Part shown: one piece after another, positions 19,185 to 51,346 of the stretch
How the letters are laid out: each line of letters starts with the position of its first letter
Numbering within the stretch: position 1 is the stretch's first letter
Program-made: the position numbers and the translations under genes
The notes under the pieces: generated by a model
The model's input: the letters and a program-made list of their open reading frames with translations, nothing else
Told to the model about the DNA's origin: nothing
Database searches by the model: none
Source: Thermomicrobiales bacterium
GTDB lineage: Bacteria; Chloroflexota; Chloroflexia; Thermomicrobiales; JALYUS01
Reading direction: 5' to 3'
DNA length: 64,000 bases
NCBI GenBank assembly: GCA_038231255.1
Contig: JBBRLR010000010.1
Location: 8,989 to 72,988, forward strand

Positions 19185-19297
19185 CTCGTATCTCGCCCCG
19201 ACGGGGCAGGAGTTGGCACCTTAGCCACGCGCATTGCCTGCGCCGCCGGTTGCCGGGCTTCAACGGGCCGATTACCCTCCACCACTCTGGATACGAG
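19185..19297 (-). promoter_or_regulatory. SAM-I (S-box) riboswitch
   Basis: The minus strand reads CUCGUAUCCAGAGUGGUGGAGGGUAAUCGGCCCGUUGAAGCCCGGCAACCGG...CUAAGGUGCCAACUCCUGCCCCGUCGGGGCGAGAUACGAG. This holds the conserved SAM-I blocks AUC-AGAG-GG-GGAGGG, GGCCCG-UGAAGCCCGGCAACC, GGUGCCAA-UCC and GAGAUA, closed by P1 CUCGUAUC/GAUACGAG. It lies upstream of metX. Confidence 0.9.
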
Positions 19298-42505: not shown

Positions 42506-43819
42506 ATGCAAACAGTGACTATCGAGGCCACGACAGCACCCGCGCGCCGCGCGCCGATTATGGCGCTGCTGGCCGCGAATGTGATCTCGCTGCTCGGCAG
42601 CATGCTGACATTGATCGCACTGCCGTGGTTCGTCCTCCAAACGACGGGCAGCGCGGCGAAAACTGGCATTGCGGGCGGCTTTGTCGCGCTGCCGGCGTTT
42701 GTCGCGGGGGTGTTCGGCGGCACGCTGGTGGATCGCCTCGGCTACAAACGGTCGAGCGTGATCGCGGACGTGGTGAGCGGCATCGGCATCGCCTGCGTGC
42801 CGCTCCTGTATCACACGGTCGGCCTCGCTTTCTGGCAACTGCTTGCCTTCATCTTCGTCGGCAACCTGCTCGCCATCCCCGGCCTGACCGCTCGCCGCGC
42901 GATGCTGCCCGAACTGGCGACCCTCGCCCGCTGGCGGCTTGAAGGAGTCAACGCGTCGTTCGAGGGCGTCCAATACCTTTCGGTGTTGCTCGGCCCACCC
43001 ATCGCCGGGCTGCTGATCGCGATCATCGGCACGAGCAATGTCCTGTGGCTGGACGCGGCCTCCTTCGCGGCGTCGGCGATCATCGTCGGCGGGCTGATCC
43101 CGCGCGTCGCGTCCGGCATGAAGGACGCGGCGCGCGGCAAATACCGCGACGAACTGATCGCGGGGCTGCGCTTTCTGCGCGGCGACCGTTTGTTGTTCGC
43201 GCTCGCCATCGGCCTCGCCATCGGCAACATGCTCGGCAGCCCGCTCTTCGGCGTCGTCCTGCCCGTCTTCGCACGGCAGACATACGGAAGCGCCGCGCTA
43301 CTCGGCATCCTCGTCGCTGCGACGGGTGGGGGTCAGGTGATCGGCGCGACGCTCTACGGCGTGGTCGGCCATCGGTTGCCCCGGCGTGCCCTCTGGATCA
43401 CCTCCTTCATCGTCGTGCCGCTGCCATGGCTCGTCTTTCTCTTCACGACCTCGCTACCCCTGATCGTCGGGGCGCTTGCACTCGGCAGCATCGTTTCCGG
43501 GCCGACCAATCCGCTCCTGGTGACGATCCGGCACGAGCGCATCCCGCAGGCATTGCGCGGACGGGTTTTCAGTACCTTTTCCGCCATCGCGTCTGTCGCG
43601 CAACCAATCGGGCTGGCCGTGGGCGGCTTCGCGGTGGAGGCATTCGGCCTGAAAGGCACGATCCTCGCCCTGACGCTCGCCGAACTCTCGCTCGGCATCG
43701 CGATGTTCTTTATCCCCGCCCTCTATGACATGAACCGGGACGAAACCGGGAAGAACCGCAAAGACGCAAAGAGCGCAGAGGACGCAAAGAGGGAAAGGAG
43801 AGTCTTGAATGATGCATAA
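42506..43819 (+). CDS. MFS transporter
   Basis: 437 aa with 12 TM helices, paralogous to the next gene. The last ~26 codons (NRDETGKNRKDAKSAEDAKRERRVLNDA) are encoded by a family-1 repeat. Confidence 0.85.
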   Translation: MQTVTIEATTAPARRAPIMALLAANVISLLGSMLTLIALPWFVLQTTGSAAKTGIAGGFVALPAFVAGVFGGTLVDRLGYKRSSVIADVVSGIGIACVPLLYHTVGLAFWQLLAFIFVGNLLAIPGLTARRAMLPELATLARWRLEGVNASFEGVQYLSVLLGPPIAGLLIAIIGTSNVLWLDAASFAASAIIVGGLIPRVASGMKDAARGKYRDELIAGLRFLRGDRLLFALAIGLAIGNMLGSPLFGVVLPVFARQTYGSAALLGILVAATGGGQVIGATLYGVVGHRLPRRALWITSFIVVPLPWLVFLFTTSLPLIVGALALGSIVSGPTNPLLVTIRHERIPQALRGRVFSTFSAIASVAQPIGLAVGGFAVEAFGLKGTILALTLAELSLGIAMFFIPALYDMNRDETGKNRKDAKSAEDAKRERRVLNDA

Positions 43820-43879
43820 TCTTCTTCTCCTCTTTGCGATCTTTGCATCCTCTGCGTCTTTGCAGTTCTCCCCGGCTTC
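43742..43879. repeat. palindromic intergenic element, family 1, locus 2
   Basis: gaaaccgggaagaaccgcaaagacgcaaagagcgcagaggacgcaaagaggg ... cctctttgcgatctttgcatcctctgcgtctttgcagttctccccggcttc. Confidence 0.8.
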
Positions 43880-43894
43880 TTCCCATGGAGAGGA

Positions 43895-45182: not shown

Positions 45183-45244
45183 CCAAGAGGGAAAAAGATT
45201 GAGCGCAGAGGACGCAGAGAGCGCAGAAAAGAAAAAATAAAGGA
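45183..45244. repeat. family-1 palindromic element, locus 3, left arm (split by the IS insertion)
   Basis: gccaagagggaaaaagattgagcgcagaggacgcagagagcgcagaaaag.. matches the left arms of other copies. The partner arm is at 47252-47305. Confidence 0.7.
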
Positions 45245-45269
45245 GGCGACTATGTACTTGACAAACCCA
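45245..45269. repeat. left terminal inverted repeat of the IS
   Basis: See the mobile element entry. Confidence 0.85.
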
Positions 45270-45460
45270 TGCGCGTACCTATAGACTGAGGGACAAACCT
45301 CGCGTTTAGTGAAACGAAGGGAGTGCCACGATGTTAATCGCCAGCAAACGACGGAAACGGCTCGGTAACGCCCGACAACGCTACGAAGCCGCGCACATGG
45401 CCTTTCGCCGTTCGCTCCCTCTCTCTTCACGACGTAAACCCAAAGAACAGCAATTGCAGA

Positions 45461-45489: not shown

Positions 45490-45636
45490 TTATTCGTCCT
45501 GCTTGCCGCCGCCCTTCTTGGCCTTCGGCTCTTTCGGCGGTGGCGGCGTCGCTAGAAGCCCCTTCAACGCTTCCTCGAAGGAGAGCGGTGCGAGGCTGAT
45601 CTTCGACTGGTCAGGCTTCTTCTTGTCTGTCGTCAT
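45490..45636 (-). CDS. small cargo ORF-B (48 aa, basic C-terminus)
   Basis: MTTDKKKPDQSKISLAPLSFEEALKGLLATPPPPKEPKAKKGGGKQDE. Below the 60-aa cut-off of the ORF track. Its ATG at 45636 overlaps the end of ORF-A by 26 nt. Confidence 0.35.
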   Translation of the reverse strand: MTTDKKKPDQSKISLAPLSFEEALKGLLATPPPPKEPKAKKGGGKQDE

Positions 45637-46008: not shown

Positions 46009-46085
46009 GCGCCGTAGTCGAGGAAGATCGTGAAGGTTCATAACCTTCAACCGTTAGCAGGGTTCGAGTCTCTCGCGGCGCACCA
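46009..46085 (+). tRNA. tRNA-like gene, anticodon CAU, non-canonical D, variable and T arms (possible pseudogene)
   Basis: Acceptor stem GCGCCGU/GCGGCGC, anticodon arm GAAGG-UUCAUAA-CCUUC, GGUUCGAGUC T-loop, A73 and an encoded CCA. However, the D stem is 3 bp with a 6-nt loop, the variable region is 9 nt, and the T stem has a C-C mismatch and a G.U pair. Confidence 0.45.
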
Positions 46086-46089
46086 TTTC

Positions 46090-46173
46090 GGGGCAGTGGC
46101 GAAACCAGCAGACGCGCCGGACTTGGAATCCAGTTCCCTCCCAGGATCGCGGGTGCAAGTCCCGCCTGCCCCA
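46090..46173 (+). tRNA. class II (Leu-type scaffold) tRNA-like gene with anticodon UGG
   Basis: Perfect acceptor stem GGGGCAG/CUGCCCC and A73. UG at positions 8-9. D arm GCGA-AACCAGCAGA-CGCG. Anticodon arm CCGGA-CUUGGAA-UCCAG with one C-A mismatch. 15-nt variable arm. T arm GCGGG-UGCAAGU-CCCGC. Followed by CC. Confidence 0.5.
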
Positions 46174-46203
46174 CCTGTTCCTTAGCATAACATTAGCAAT
46201 CTG

Positions 46204-47201
46204 TCAAGAGCCTACTGGCTCCTTGTATCGCAACCGCTTCCCCGCCGTCTGCCGGATTGCCCGCTCCGTCCGCTCTCCGTCCTTCATCTTGCGCGTGTTG
46301 TAGCGGTAGTCGAACTCGCCAAGATAGGACGGCAAGTGCTTCTCCGAGACGCTATGGTGCGGGCCGTCAATCGAACGCTTCAACTGCGAGAAATAGCCCT
46401 CTGCGGTGTTCGTGTATACGTCGCCGCGCACATATTCGTCCTTGCCGTGGTCAACGGTTTCGTGCGAGGCGAATGCCTTGCCCGGCTCTCATAGGCCGCG
46501 AACGAATCGGTCATCAGCCGCGCATCGGGATGGATGTTCGTGTCCAGCACTTCTTTCAGCGTCGCGCCCGAAACATCCGTGACAACCTTCGAGCGGACGT
46601 TGCCGCCGCGCTCGACAAGCGAGACAACGGGCGTCTTCTTGGAATCCTTGCCGGGCCGTCCGCGTTTGCCCTTCTCGACGCCGCCGATGTACGTTTCGTC
46701 CGCTTCCACGATGCTGGAGAGCATGTCAACCAATGGATGTTGCGCCATCGCGTAACGGATACGATGCGCCATAAACCACGCCGTTTTGTACGAAACGCCC
46801 AATGTCCGCTGCAATTCGAGGGCGGCAACGCCGTTCTTACCCGCCTGCATCATGTGGACGGCAAGGAGCCATTTCGAGAGCGGCACTTTGGAATCCTCGA
46901 AGATCGTGCCGACAAGGACGGAAAACTGCTGGCGGCAATCGCCGCACTTCCACACGCGGCGGAACGTCGCCTTGCCCGTACTGGTCGTGCGTGTGCCATC
47001 CTTCGGCGCGAGATAGTAGGCATTGCCGACAACGCCGCAATGCGGGCAGATCGGGCCGGACGGCCAGCGCATCCGCTCGACCAGTTGGTACGCCGCGTCC
47101 TCATCGGAGAAGTGCTTGGCGATGGTGCTAAGATTCAGGCCAGCAAAGGCAATCTCTGGAACCATCTCGCGTACCGCCTTGTCGAGTGCAATCCGTTTCA
47201 A
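46204..47201 (-). pseudogene. IS1595-family transposase, interrupted by a frameshift
   Basis: The N-terminal 273-aa frame (TTG 47201) has a zinc ribbon CPHCG..CGDC, HTH and DDE region (EADETYIGG..). The conserved C-terminus (GKAFASHETVDHGKDEYVRGDVYTNTAEGYFSQLKRSI..HLPSYLGEFDYRYN) continues in another frame (46204-46431+). The frame switch is near 46475-46490. Confidence 0.85.
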
Positions 47202-47226
47202 CCGTACTCATTGTACGCGATCATCG

Positions 47227-47251
47227 TGGGTTTGTCAAGTACATAGTCGTC
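47227..47251. repeat. right terminal inverted repeat of the IS
   Basis: See the mobile element entry. Confidence 0.85.
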
Positions 47252-47305
47252 ATAAAAGATTCCCCTCTGTGACCTCTGCGCACTCTGCGCACTCTGCGTT
47301 AAGTG
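47252..47305. repeat. family-1 palindromic element, locus 3, right arm
   Basis: ..gattcccctctgtgacctctgcgcactctgcgcactctgcgttaag matches the CTCTGCG-type right arms of other copies. Confidence 0.7.
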
Positions 47306-49802: not shown

Positions 49803-49941
49803 GAAACCGATTGAACCGCAATGACGCAGAGGACGCAAAAAGAACGCAAAGGAGAACCGAAAGAGATTGGGAGATGCACGCTATCTTTCTCTTCTTTGCG
49901 CTCTTCGCGTCCTTTGCGCCTTTGCGGTTCTCCCCAGTTTC
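49803..49941. repeat. palindromic intergenic element, family 1, locus 4
   Basis: gaaaccgattgaaccgcaatgacgcagaggacgcaaaaagaacgcaaaggag ... ttctttgcgctcttcgcgtcctttgcgcctttgcggttctccccagtttc. Confidence 0.8.
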
Positions 49942-49959
49942 GATTCGTCCCCGGTTTCC

Positions 49960-51209: not shown

Positions 51210-51346
51210 GAAGCCGGGGAGAACCGCAGAGGACACAGAGGACGCAGAGAGCGTAGAGGAAATGGAAGGAGGATCGTTTTTGGTCCTCTTTCTTTTTTCT
51301 CCTCCCTACTCTGCGTGCTCTGCGCCTCTGCGGTTCTCCCCGGTTT
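51210..51346. repeat. palindromic intergenic element, family 1, locus 5 (best-preserved copy)
   Basis: gaagccggggagaaccgcagaggacacagaggacgcagagagcgtagagg ... ctactctgcgtgctctgcgcctctgcggttctccccggtttg. Confidence 0.85.

What the first reader, a model, noticed from the sequence alone, without database searches (positions are those of the whole stretch)
46009..46175. Tandem non-canonical tRNA-like genes as IS cargo: a CAU species and a Leu-type class II body with a proline (UGG) anticodon
First gene (46009-46085): it has a 7-bp acceptor stem GCGCCGU/GCGGCGC, anticodon arm GAAGG-UUCAUAA-CCUUC (CAU), a GGUUCGAGUC T-loop, A73 and an encoded CCA. It departs from a normal tRNA in having only a 3-bp D stem with a 6-nt loop, a 9-nt variable region, and a T stem with a C-C mismatch and a G.U pair.

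Second gene (46090-46173), 4 nt later: it has a perfect acceptor stem GGGGCAG/CUGCCCC, A73, UG at positions 8-9, D arm GCGA-AACCAGCAGA-CGCG, anticodon arm CCGGA-CUUGGAA-UCCAG (anticodon UGG), a 15-nt variable arm and T arm GCGGG-UGCAAGU-CCCGC. Segment by segment this has the same lengths as E. coli tRNA-Leu(CAG) as I remember it (GCGG-AAUUGGUAGA-CGCG, 15-nt variable arm, GGGGG-UUCAAGU-CCCCC, A73). It therefore looks like a leucine-type scaffold. Three things differ: the anticodon reads Pro CCR codons, G18 is A, and U55 is G. G18 and U55 are the two partners of one elbow contact, and both are changed.

Interpretation: in the systems studied, LeuRS does not use the anticodon as an identity element. 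If this RNA is expressed and charged, it could be a Pro-to-Leu missense tRNA. Alternatively, both genes could be decaying tRNA fossils, or tRNA-like RNAs with a non-translational role for the element (decoy, processing signal or primer).

Context: both genes lie inside the IS terminal repeats, antisense to the transposase and cargo ORFs, so they would travel with the element. Reported allo-tRNAs have 8/4 or 9/3 acceptor/T geometry. This one is 7/5 and would be a different case.
Basis: partly seen in the sequence, partly recalled or inferred. Interest (0 to 1): 0.85.

Follow-up and report, generated by a model that had tools for sequence, protein, structure and literature searches.

The report
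Transposon-borne leucine-type tRNA with proline anticodon
A jumping gene in a Chloroflexota genome carries a leucine-shaped tRNA gene that reads proline codons. Dozens of related transposons in several bacterial phyla keep the same kind of mismatched tRNA, which points to a mobile source of genetic-code misreading that I found described nowhere.

Summary
The second gene (46090-46173, +) is real. ARAGORN calls it and Rfam's tRNA model scores it 46.7 bits against a cut-off of 29. It has the same 84-nt layout as E. coli tRNA-Leu(CAG), A73 and a UGG anticodon.

It lies inside a 2,003-bp IS1595-family element with perfect 23-bp inverted repeats, converging on the transposase gene.

It is not casual cargo. 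Leu-type class II tRNAs with non-Leu anticodons, mostly UGG, sit beside IS1595 or IS1 transposases in Acidobacteriota, Planctomycetota and Chloroflexota. Transposase adjacency is 25/37 for non-Leu anticodons against 1/119 for Leu anticodons (p = 8e-19). In a sample chosen by transposase homology alone, 14-15 of 80 loci carry one.

Across 52 members the cloverleaf is 99% paired, and 18 of 20 pairs show compensatory change. G35 and G36 are better conserved than neighbouring loop bases. Eight-bp target duplications flank whole elements, tRNA included.

The A18/G55 elbow is a natural, covarying tRNA-Leu subtype, not a defect.

The window copy looks degenerate: frameshifted transposase, a unique C28·A42 mismatch and no target duplication.

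The first gene (CAU) is called only by ARAGORN. It gets no covariance-model hit and has no homologue, though tandem partners recur in relatives.

Charging and function are untested. Pro-to-Leu (or ambiguous Pro/Leu) decoding is the leading inference.

The parts
45247..45269 (.). Left terminal inverted repeat of the IS (CGACTATGTACTTGACAAACCCA)
   Evidence: A perfect 23-bp inverted repeat with 47227-47249; these are the only two matches in the window. The identical repeat bounds the 3,186-bp relative L001. The motif TGGGTYTGTCAAGTRCATA bounds eight other related elements.
45258..45287 (+). Promoter-like site inside the left repeat, facing inward towards the tRNA genes (TTGACA-18-TAGACT)
   Evidence: A consensus scan gives 10 of 12 matches. 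It is a consensus match only. It lies 720 nt upstream of gene 1, and no promoter-like site lies closer.
45490..45636 (-). Small lysine-rich ORF (48 aa, motif SLAPLSFEEALKGLL) conserved among related elements
   Evidence: 89% nucleotide identity to L001. Homologous small ORFs occur in L035, L047 and L058. No Pfam match.
46009..46085 (+). Irregular tRNA-like element (CAU loop, A73, encoded CCA), 4 nt upstream of gene 2
   Evidence: ARAGORN calls it. RF00005 gives no hit and no homologue was found. Tandem partners in the same position exist in relatives: L098 (61 bits), L036 (42 bits), L071 and L002.
46090..46173 (+). Class II, tRNA-Leu-type tRNA gene with UGG (Pro) anticodon: 7/5 acceptor/T geometry, A73, A18/G55 elbow, C28·A42 mismatch
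   Evidence: ARAGORN. RF00005 46.7 bits. Same layout as E. coli tRNA-Leu. Member of a 52-sequence family with 99% pairing and 18 of 20 covarying pairs.
46204..47201 (-). IS1595-family transposase gene, broken by a frameshift near 46430-46480 (ORFs 46380-47201 and 46204-46431)
   Evidence: Pfam Zn_ribbon_IS1595 and DDE_Tnp_IS1595 are split over two ORFs. Intact 320-aa homologues exist at up to 93% identity. tblastn places residues 1-225 and 212-318 of the homologue in different frames.
47210..47238 (-). Promoter-like site for the transposase gene, with its -35 hexamer inside the right repeat (TTGACA-17-TACAAT)
   Evidence: A consensus scan gives 11 of 12 matches. It is a consensus match only.
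47227..47249 (.). Right terminal inverted repeat of the IS

Best explanation
Shown. Gene 2 belongs to a widespread, structurally constrained family of class II tRNA genes derived from tRNA-Leu. Their anticodon has been changed to a non-leucine one, mostly UGG. They are kept as internal components of IS1595-family, and separately IS1-family, transposons, usually at the junction between the transposase gene and a variable cargo region. Such a tRNA could arise from a tRNA-Leu(UAG) of the A18/G55 elbow type, which exists in Chloroflexales, by a single A35G change.

Inferred. The RNA is probably processed like a tRNA and folds into a normal L shape. It is probably charged by LeuRS, which in the systems studied ignores the anticodon and depends on A73 and the Leu-type D arm and elbow. 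ProRS may compete through G35, G36 and A73. The tRNA would then decode CCR codons on the ribosome, giving low-level Pro-to-Leu or ambiguous Pro/Leu decoding. I could not establish what the transposon gains from this.

The window copy sits in a decaying element: the transposase is frameshifted, the anticodon stem has a C28·A42 mismatch, and there is no target-site duplication. It may be weakened or inactive.

Gene 1 is an irregular tRNA-like partner. Such partners recur in relatives, but this one has no covariance-model support and no homologue.
For: Structure under selection. Across 52 non-Leu members, 99.0% of stem cells are paired, 18 of 20 pairs show double-sided change, and the covariation score is 0.607 against 0.166 for shuffles (0 of 500 shuffles reach it). 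Slid controls are 37-52% paired. RF00005 scores 12 of 14 relatives tested at 44-58 bits.

Tertiary contact under selection. A D-loop AGC goes with G55 in 163 cases and a D-loop GG with Y55 in 9; there are no mixed cases.

Anticodon loop under selection. In the IS1595 lineage the conservation is U33 91%, G35 94% and G36 91%, against 58%, 52% and 70% for positions 32, 37 and 38. Changes at position 34 (UGG, GGG, AGG) stay within the Pro codon box.

Leu identity marks. A73 occurs in 171 of 173 sequences, and U8 and G9 are invariant. Segment lengths equal those of E. coli tRNA-Leu. The best annotated match is a phage tRNA-Leu. Members with CUA, UUA, GUC, UCC, UGA, CCA or CGC anticodons all keep A73 and the Leu body.

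Linkage to transposons. Transposase adjacency is 25/37 for non-Leu anticodons against 1/119 for Leu anticodons, Fisher p = 8e-19. In a sample chosen by transposase homology alone, 14-15 of 80 loci carry one. Inverted-repeat pairs enclose transposase, tRNA and cargo in nine elements. Target duplications (8 bp in L058, L161, L193 and L047; 7 bp in L192) flank whole elements. Between L039 and L193 the cargo differs, but tRNA and transposase are kept at 83% identity.

Attenuating features. C33 occurs in 5 of 52 members, a parallel to the rare position-33 variants of known natural mistranslating tRNAs (PMC11415595).

Precedent. Allo-tRNAs insert Ser at Leu codons and are toxic in E. coli (PMC5389517).
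Against: There is no evidence of transcription, processing, charging or decoding for any member.

The conserved G35 and G36 and the invariant A73 are also what bacterial ProRS needs, so the product could simply be Pro-tRNA.

In this host 67% of Pro codons are CCG. An efficient Leu-tRNA(UGG) should therefore be very harmful, which argues for weak expression or a non-decoding role.

The position and orientation relative to the transposase vary (convergent, upstream tandem, downstream tandem), so there is no single regulatory logic.

The 28-33-nt structured variable arm of many relatives suggests binding of a protein other than a synthetase.

Only about 18% of the transposase clade carries the tRNA, and close relatives L005 and L006 lack it, so it is dispensable for transposition.

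The 'encrypted transposase' idea (Pro codons at conserved Leu positions) was tested and failed.
Confidence: 0.45

Rival explanations
1. The RNA has a non-translational, element-serving role. It keeps a tRNA shape because it is handled by RNase P, RNase Z or the CCA-adding enzyme, or is bound by an element protein. It might mark the 3' end of the cargo transcript, insulate it from the converging transposase transcript, seed an antisense RNA against the 3' end of the transposase mRNA, or serve as a protein-binding platform. The anticodon loop would be a recognition site, not a decoder.
For: The tRNA sits exactly at the cargo/transposase junction, 5-55 bp from the transposase stop codon in most elements, with no room for a terminator.

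Cargo exchange stops at the tRNA's 5' end.

A winged-helix or HARE-HTH gene often ends about 60 nt upstream on the same strand.

Many relatives have a structured 28-33-nt variable arm.

CCA-ending tRNA-like or minihelix partners recur 2-10 nt upstream.

Some acidobacterial irregular tRNAs were charged but not used in translation (PMC5389517).
Against: A processing signal or structural platform does not need Y32-U33-NNN-R37, or a Pro-box anticodon conserved above its neighbours.

It does not need invariant A73 either, nor the 18:55 elbow covariation.

The orientation relative to the transposase gene varies, so one antisense or terminator mechanism cannot explain all cases.
Confidence: 0.22
2. 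It is an extra proline tRNA with an odd body. ProRS charges it through G35, G36 and A73, and it decodes CCR as proline, so there is no mistranslation. The element carries it much as phages carry tRNAs.
For: G35 and G36 are 91-94% conserved, position-34 changes stay in the Pro box, and G37 is present in about half the members, as in true tRNA-Pro. A73 is invariant. ARAGORN, which names a tRNA by its anticodon, labels them tRNA-Pro.
Against: The body is Leu-type throughout. The first pair is G1:C72, not the C1:G72 that E. coli-type ProRS uses as an identity element (established knowledge, not tested here).

Sister lineages on IS1 and IS1595 elements carry CUA, UUA, GUC, UCC, UGA, CCA and GGA anticodons on the same body with A73. 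This fits one anticodon-blind synthetase better than many cognate ones.

Insertion sequences have no evident need for codon supplementation. Pro codon use is similar in the transposase gene and in host genes.
Confidence: 0.15
3. It is a conflict-system effector. The mismatched tRNA is a deliberately toxic or decoy RNA within a defence, addiction or toxin-antitoxin-like cargo module. It would be kept silent by the adjacent HTH protein and released on phage attack or loss of the element.
For: The cargo of related elements includes NYN nucleases (L001, L193, L035), DUF3800 (L039) and a dCTP-deaminase-like protein (L192), plus HTH proteins next to the tRNA. Allo-tRNAs were reported near toxin-antitoxin systems and killed E. 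coli when induced (PMC5389517).
Against: No single cargo gene accompanies the tRNA in every element. The window element has almost no cargo (740 bp). No defence-system model was tested (PADLOC was not run).
Confidence: 0.1
4. Both genes are decaying fossils of a chromosomal tRNA locus captured by the IS. They have no function, and gene 1 may be a chance ARAGORN call.
For: This copy has a frameshifted transposase. It has the only anticodon-stem mismatch among 52 relatives. It has no clean target-site duplication. Gene 1 gets no covariance-model hit and has no homologue.
Against: For gene 2 the family evidence contradicts neutral decay: compensatory changes in 18 of 20 pairs, conservation across three phyla and across two transposase families, and exclusive linkage of non-Leu anticodons to transposases. 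Gene 2 still scores 46.7 bits. The inverted repeats are still perfect.
Confidence: 0.08

Closest known systems
Allo-tRNAs and 'polycistrons of irregular tRNAs' of Acidobacteria (Mukai et al., Nucleic Acids Res 2017, PMC5389517)
   Same: Both are class II-like tRNAs with a long variable arm whose anticodons do not match the identity of the body. Anticodons are diverse and include stop anticodons. Both come from soil bacteria. The paper notes an association with transposon-related genes and toxin-antitoxin systems, and reports tandem irregular tRNAs in metatranscriptomes.
   Different: Allo-tRNAs have 8/4 or 9/3 acceptor/T geometry, a tRNA-Sec-like D arm, and Ser or Ala identity. The family here is canonical 7/5 (99% paired on that model). 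It has a tRNA-Leu D arm, A73, mostly a UGG anticodon, and a systematic position inside IS1595 or IS1 elements. The text of that paper does not describe such a position.
Laboratory tRNA-Leu anticodon mutants, such as the E. coli leuX/supP amber suppressor, and engineered tRNA-Leu missense variants (PMC11028032)
   Same: A leucine body carries a changed anticodon. The logic rests on LeuRS not reading the anticodon. The CUA and UUA members found on IS1-like elements are the natural counterparts.
   Different: Those are selected or engineered chromosomal mutants. Here the genes are natural, conserved over long evolutionary distances, and mobile.
tRNA-ProX/ProRSx of Streptomyces (reviewed in PMC11415595)
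   Same: These are natural, genetically encoded bacterial tRNAs with mismatched identity and anticodon. They have unusual position-33 variants thought to limit decoding.
   Different: It is the mirror image: a proline body with Ala, Thr or Asn anticodons, co-encoded with a dedicated synthetase. Here no synthetase is co-encoded and the carrier is a transposon.
IS1595-family insertion sequences with passenger genes
   Same: The element has a transposase with a Zn-ribbon and a DDE_Tnp_IS1595 domain, short terminal inverted repeats, 8-bp target duplications (seen in relatives) and variable passenger genes.
   Different: I found no report of a tRNA gene as a conserved passenger. The searches covered open-access text only.
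Ordinary tRNA-Leu with the A18/G55 (D-loop AGCA, T-loop UGCAA) elbow
   Same: The D arm, T arm, A73 and long variable arm are the same. This subtype is common in Patescibacteria, Planctomycetota, Verrucomicrobiota, Chloroflexales and phages.
   Different: Those carry Leu anticodons and are not next to transposases (1 of 119).

Membership tests
Bacterial tRNA-Leu (class II) | Long variable arm with a stem | tested here: met
   The variable arm is 15 nt, with a UCC/GGA stem. It has the same length as in E. coli tRNA-Leu(CAG).
Bacterial tRNA-Leu (class II) | Discriminator A73 | tested here: met
   A73 is present in the window gene and in 171 of 173 family sequences.
Bacterial tRNA-Leu (class II) | Leu-type D arm (17 nt, 3-bp stem GCG/CGC) and T arm | tested here: met
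   12 of 17 D-arm bases and 14 of 17 T-arm bases are identical to E. coli tRNA-Leu. The A18/G55 elbow variant is shared with more than 100 ordinary tRNA-Leu genes.
Bacterial tRNA-Leu (class II) | Leucine anticodon (NAG or YAA) | tested here: not met
   The anticodon is UGG.
Bacterial tRNA-Leu (class II) | Aminoacylation by LeuRS | not testable with these tools
   This needs a charging assay.
Bacterial tRNA-Pro | Anticodon bases G35 and G36 | tested here: met
   The anticodon is UGG. G35 is 94% and G36 91% conserved in the IS1595 lineage.
Bacterial tRNA-Pro | Class I body (4-5-nt variable loop) | tested here: not met
   The variable arm is 15 nt and the body is Leu-type.
Bacterial tRNA-Pro | G37 3' of the anticodon (the m1G37 site) | tested here: not met
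   The window loop is CUUGGAA, so position 37 is A. Among relatives, 17 have G37 and 14 have A37.
Bacterial tRNA-Pro | G72 (C1:G72) acceptor determinant of E. coli-type ProRS | tested here: not met
   The first pair is G1:C72. That G72 is required is established knowledge for E. coli, not tested for this host.
Allo-tRNA (Mukai 2017) | 8/4 or 9/3 acceptor/T-stem geometry | tested here: not met
   The 7/5 model is 99% paired across 52 sequences. The base after pair 7 (U8) cannot pair with C65.
Allo-tRNA (Mukai 2017) | Anticodon unrelated to body identity, and association with mobile or toxin-antitoxin genes | tested here: met
   The description of allo-tRNAs is from PMC5389517.
IS1595-family insertion sequence | Transposase with Zn_ribbon_IS1595 and DDE_Tnp_IS1595 domains | tested here: met
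   Pfam E-values are 1e-13, 4.5e-16 and 1.5e-12, split over two ORFs by a frameshift.
IS1595-family insertion sequence | Terminal inverted repeats | tested here: met
   The repeats are 23 bp and perfect. The motif is shared with nine relatives.
IS1595-family insertion sequence | 8-bp target-site duplication | tested here: inconclusive
   The window copy has no clean duplication (AAAGGAGG against TCATAAAA). Relatives L058, L161, L193 and L047 have perfect 8-bp duplications.
tRNA (Rfam RF00005), applied to gene 1 | Covariance-model score at or above the gathering score | tested here: not met
   No RF00005 match at E <= 10, either in 601 nt or in 98 nt. Only ARAGORN calls it.

The most novel reading that the evidence does not exclude
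A previously undescribed class of transposons (IS1595 and IS1 lineages in Acidobacteriota, Planctomycetota and Chloroflexota) carries active, leucine-accepting tRNAs. Their anticodons are retargeted to proline, stop and other codons. These would be mobile genes that deliberately rewrite decoding in their hosts, used by the element or its defence-like cargo as a toxin, addiction factor or stress switch.
Probability: 0.25. Interest if true: 0.92.

Novelty: new variant of a known kind. Interest (0 to 1): 0.8.

Why it matters
Natural, heritable tRNAs whose body and anticodon disagree are rare. The known cases are yeast CUG tRNAs, Streptomyces tRNA-ProX and acidobacterial allo-tRNAs.

This family adds a canonical 7/5 tRNA-Leu body retargeted mostly to proline codons. 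It is conserved with strong covariation and physically built into transposons of two related families in at least three phyla.

If these tRNAs are charged and used, transposons would spread missense and nonsense suppression horizontally. That bears on how genetic codes drift, on adaptive or weaponised mistranslation, and on what insertion sequences can carry. The family would also offer natural orthogonal-looking tRNA scaffolds for code engineering.

If the tRNAs are not used in translation, they are a new tRNA-like RNA component of DDE transposons.

Either way the question can now be tested, because many intact elements with defined ends are in hand.

Tried and rejected
1. 'Encrypted transposase'. 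The idea was that Pro codons sit at positions conserved as Leu and are decoded by the element's own tRNA. An alignment of 16 transposases showed no column with majority Leu and minority Pro. The IS1-like transposases next to CUA tRNAs are uninterrupted ORFs. Rejected.

2. The transposase frameshift as a programmed +1 event promoted by a tRNA(UGG). The shift needed is -1 at GAG AGC CGG, with no slippery heptamer, and homologues are single 320-aa ORFs. Rejected; it is a mutation.

3. The tRNA lies outside the element, as an insertion target. Rejected, because inverted-repeat pairs and target duplications enclose it.

4. The tRNA forms the terminus of the element. The L039/L193 homology stops at the tRNA's 5' end, which suggested this. 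The distal inverted repeats lie 1.2-2.7 kb further out, so the break reflects a cargo swap. Rejected.

5. Homologues of gene 1. None were found by blastn-short in about 240 loci. The regions upstream of gene 2 do not align between the window and L001.

6. Other copies of this exact element. The exact-product look-up found nothing. Plasmid and phage collections gave only a 107-bp weak hit and one phage tRNA-Leu.

7. Inverted-repeat searches by generic repeat finding in distant loci failed. A motif search derived from the window repeat was needed.

8. Literature. Searches for Leu-type tRNAs with Pro anticodons, tRNAs in IS1595 elements, and mobile suppressor tRNAs returned nothing relevant. The supplementary files of Mukai 2017 are not held, so I could not check whether any of their 7/5 'irregular tRNAs' belong to this family.
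Full report
WHAT IS AT THE COORDINATES

ARAGORN finds exactly two tRNA genes in the 64-kb window: tRNA(cat) at 46009-46085 and tRNA(tgg) at 46090-46175, both on the plus strand.

Rfam's tRNA model matches the second gene end to end at 46.7 bits, against a gathering score of 29. It does not match the first gene, either in a 601-nt search or in a 98-nt search at E <= 10.

- acceptor GGGGCAG/CUGCCCC
- U8 and G9
- a 17-nt D arm, GCGAAACCAGCAGACGC
- anticodon loop CUUGGAA
- a 15-nt variable arm
- T arm GCGGG-UGCAAGU-CCCGC
- A73

The anticodon stem has a C28·A42 mismatch. Gene 2 does not encode CCA.

Gene 2 has the same total length (84 nt to position 73) and the same length in every segment, with 48/84 identical bases. 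The best match in an annotated collection is a phage tRNA-Leu(UAA).

Gene 1 has the stems and loops described, plus an encoded ACCA. Its D arm and T stem are weak. Its folding energy is only modestly better than shuffled sequence (z = -2.3).

THE ELEMENT

Perfect 23-bp inverted repeats lie at 45247-45269 and 47227-47249, the only two copies in the window. They bound a 2,003-bp element.

Its minus strand encodes an IS1595-family transposase with a Zn-ribbon and a DDE_Tnp_IS1595 domain. The gene is split into two ORFs by a frameshift near 46430-46480. Intact homologues are single ORFs of about 320 aa.

The element has 56-60% G+C, against 62-72% in its flanks.

The host is a Chloroflexota bacterium, probably Thermomicrobiales. 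A neighbouring 854-aa protein is 98% identical to a Chloroflexota MAG protein and 89% identical to a Thermomicrobiales one.

The tRNA genes lie between the transposase stop codon and a 740-bp cargo region, and converge on the transposase gene. The cargo region contains a small lysine-rich ORF that is conserved in related elements.

Promoter-like hexamers lie inside both inverted repeats. One faces the transposase gene; the other faces inward towards the tRNA genes, 720 nt away. These are consensus matches only.

RELATIVES: THE KEY RESULT

The closest transposase homologues led to contig L001. It carries a 3,186-bp element with the identical inverted repeats, and a UGG tRNA in the same place and orientation as in the window. 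Its cargo is different. They also led to L002, which has a UGG tRNA downstream of the transposase gene on the same strand.

The three tRNAs differ by compensatory changes in the acceptor stem, the anticodon stem and the variable arm.

I then scanned one genome per species with a pattern for the D arm and T arm that ignores the anticodon. It returned more than 120 loci, and viral contigs gave 32 more.

Most hits are ordinary tRNA-Leu genes (UAG, CAG, GAG, UAA, CAA) of Patescibacteria, Planctomycetota, Verrucomicrobiota, Chloroflexales and phages.

About 40 hits carry non-leucine anticodons on the same body:
- UGG, about 26 times, many with a 24-33-nt variable arm that ARAGORN cannot call
- GGG and AGG
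- CUA (four times) and UUA (twice)
- GUC, UCC, UGA, GGA, CCA, CGC and CCU

All 18 acidobacterial loci listed are of this non-Leu kind.

LINKAGE TO TRANSPOSASES

tblastn and neighbour clustering show an IS1595-family transposase, 37-67% identical to the window's relative, beside the tRNA in 19 loci. An IS1-family transposase (Pfam DDE_Tnp_IS1) lies beside it in 7 more.

Among pattern-ascertained genes, 25 of 37 with non-Leu anticodons have such a transposase in the 8-kb locus. Only 1 of 119 with Leu anticodons does (Fisher p = 8e-19).

I then sampled in the reverse direction, choosing 80 metagenome loci by transposase homology alone. Fourteen or fifteen carry a class II Leu-type tRNA with a non-Leu anticodon next to the transposase gene. 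Of the 14 ARAGORN/pattern calls, 11 read UGG, one AGG and one GUC; L193 was not read, and L197 was found only by nhmmer.

These include versions with the canonical elbow (D-loop GGUAG, T-loop UUCGAAU). Over the whole data set the D-loop and position 55 covary without exception: AGC with G55 163 times, GG with Y55 nine times, no mixed cases.

THE tRNA LIES INSIDE THE ELEMENT

A motif derived from the window repeat (TGGGTYTGTCAAGTRCATA) finds inverted pairs that enclose transposase, tRNA and 1.2-2.7 kb of cargo in L001, L035, L039, L047, L058, L161, L192 and L193.

Perfect 8-bp direct repeats flank the whole unit in L058, L161, L193 and L047, and a 7-bp repeat in L192. The tRNA therefore transposes with the element.

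The window copy and L001 have no clean duplication.

The usual layout is repeat, transposase gene, then the tRNA gene converging on it, then cargo, then repeat. The tRNA's 3' end lies 5-55 bp from the transposase stop codon. Some elements instead have the tRNA 130-270 bp upstream of the transposase gene on the same strand.

Between L039 and L193, which are 83% identical, homology stops exactly at the tRNA's 5' end. The cargo beyond it differs.

Cargo in related elements includes:
- NYN nucleases
- DUF3800
- a dCTP-deaminase-like protein
- winged-helix or HARE-HTH proteins that end about 60 nt upstream of the tRNA
- the small lysine-rich ORF

IS THE RNA UNDER SELECTION AS A tRNA?

On an alignment of 52 non-Leu members, the 7/5 cloverleaf is 99.0% paired and 18 of 20 pairs show changes on both sides (203 cells). 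The covariation score is 0.607, against 0.166 for shuffles; none of 500 shuffles reaches it. Slid controls are 37-52% paired.

RF00005 scores 12 of 14 relatives tested at 44-58 bits. A73 occurs in 171 of 173 sequences, and U8 and G9 are invariant.

In the IS1595 lineage, G35 (94%), G36 (91%) and U33 (91%) are better conserved than positions 32, 37 and 38 (52-70%). The changes at position 34 (UGG, GGG, AGG) keep the Pro codon box.

This is the signature of an L-shaped, anticodon-dependent molecule, not of a decaying fossil.

The window copy is the only one of the 52 with an unpaired 28:42 (C·A). Its transposase is also broken. I read it as a degenerating copy of a functional type.

MECHANISM: SHOWN AND INFERRED

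Shown: descent from tRNA-Leu, structural and anticodon constraint, and residence and mobility within IS1595 and IS1 elements.

Inferred: who charges the tRNA and what it does. Established work on bacterial LeuRS shows that it ignores the anticodon and depends on A73 and on the D-arm and elbow architecture. All of these are kept in every member, whatever its anticodon. The simplest family-wide reading is therefore a set of Leu-accepting missense and nonsense suppressors.

For the Pro-box members, ProRS (which uses G35, G36 and A73) may also act.

In this host 67% of Pro codons are CCG, so efficient Pro-to-Leu decoding would be costly. C33 in 5 of 52 members recalls the attenuating position-33 variants of known natural mistranslators (PMC11415595).

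One concrete benefit hypothesis was tested and failed: that the transposase gene is 'encrypted', with Pro codons at Leu positions.

Rival roles are set out in the Rival explanations section: a processing, insulating or antisense role at the cargo/transposase junction; protein binding by the long variable arm; or a toxin or decoy in a defence-like cargo module. None is excluded.

GENE 1

It has no covariance-model support and no homologue. The regions upstream of gene 2 do not align between the window and L001.

However, a second tRNA-like element ending in CCA lies 2-10 nt upstream of the class II tRNA in several relatives:
- L098: RF00005 61 bits
- L036: 42 bits
- L071 and L002: related GGGGGUAG...CUACCUCC-ACCA elements
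- L001: an acceptor/T-like minihelix, z = -3.0

Downstream partners occur in L058 and L186.

[quoted passage not shown] Gene 1 is best seen as an irregular, possibly degenerate, example of such a partner.

COMPARISON AND NOVELTY

The closest known things are:
- allo-tRNAs: same theme, but 8/4 or 9/3 geometry and Ser or Ala identity
- laboratory tRNA-Leu suppressors
- Streptomyces tRNA-ProX: the mirror case, with its own synthetase
- IS1595 elements with passenger genes

I found no report of a canonical 7/5 tRNA-Leu body with a Pro or other non-Leu anticodon as a conserved component of IS1595 or IS1 elements. The searches covered open-access text only. The supplementary files of the allo-tRNA paper were not available.

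I therefore rate this a new variant of a known kind, namely identity-mismatched tRNAs on mobile elements, and of high interest. Function is entirely untested, and the window's own copy is probably decaying.

Noticed in passing
window 19185-19297 (-): SAM riboswitch (S-box leader): RF00162 at 72 bits against a gathering score of 44.4.
   Followed up: no
window 43737-43884, 45204-45242, 47262-47295, 49813-49942, 51210-51346: A family of REP-like intergenic repeats (CGCAGAGGACGCAGAG... and its complement), partly arranged as inverted pairs. The IS is inserted within one such cluster, which may explain the lack of a clean target duplication.
   Followed up: no
L018 6765-6852, L021 1762-1849, L096 3870-3959, L119 1778-1866; L015 945-1030; L148 3316-3401: Leu-type class II tRNAs with amber (CUA) or ochre (UUA) anticodons. 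The CUA genes lie just upstream of IS1-family transposase genes in Acidobacteriaceae MAGs. They look like natural nonsense-suppressor genes on transposons.
   Followed up: partly
L025, L035, L036, L039, L042, L046, L047, L063, L071, L075, L098, L099, L116 (class II UGG tRNAs): A subgroup has a 28-33-nt variable arm with a conserved architecture: an outer 5-6-bp stem, an inner hairpin (CCUCU...AAGG) and a 3' ACAA-like bulge. The outer stem covaries. ARAGORN misses these genes.
   Followed up: partly
L001 2070-2759, L193, L035 (NYN); L039 (DUF3800); L192 (dCTP deaminase-like); L161, L039, L193, L035, L192 (HTH proteins upstream of the tRNA): The cargo of the tRNA-bearing IS1595 elements is made of defence-like or nuclease genes. 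An HTH protein gene often ends about 60 nt before the tRNA on the same strand.
   Followed up: partly
window 45490-45636 (-); L001 2785-2970; also L035, L047, L058: A small lysine-rich ORF with the motif SLAPLSFEEAL-GLL is conserved near the inverted repeat far from the transposase gene, in elements whose transposases are only about 45-93% identical. It has no Pfam match.
   Followed up: partly
L002 1547-1615 and L071 7710-7781: Related tRNA-like partner elements (GGGGGUAG..GGUCAGC...CUACCUCC-ACCA) lie upstream of the class II tRNA in two elements whose transposases share only about 40% identity. Neither ARAGORN nor RF00005 calls them.
   Followed up: partly
L008 1482-5507: A Bacteroidota MAG contig carries a cluster of 15 tRNA genes. 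It includes irregular ones: tRNA(tta), a call with a 4-nt anticodon, and duplicated Asn, Gly and Gln genes. The cluster resembles a phage tRNA array.
   Followed up: no
L039 3977-4060 and L193 46-129: Two elements that differ in cargo share about 95 nt of flanking sequence beyond the transposase-proximal inverted repeat. This suggests insertion into the same repeated target, or a rearrangement.
   Followed up: no
L179 3973-4048; L215 2735-2901; L198 4132-4218: Other IS1595 loci carry different irregular tRNA-like genes next to the transposase gene: a 76-nt 'Gln ctg', a tandem 'Arg tcg' plus a class I 'Pro tgg', and an 87-nt 'Asn gtt'. The association of tRNA-like genes with this IS clade may be broader than the Leu-type family.
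   Followed up: no
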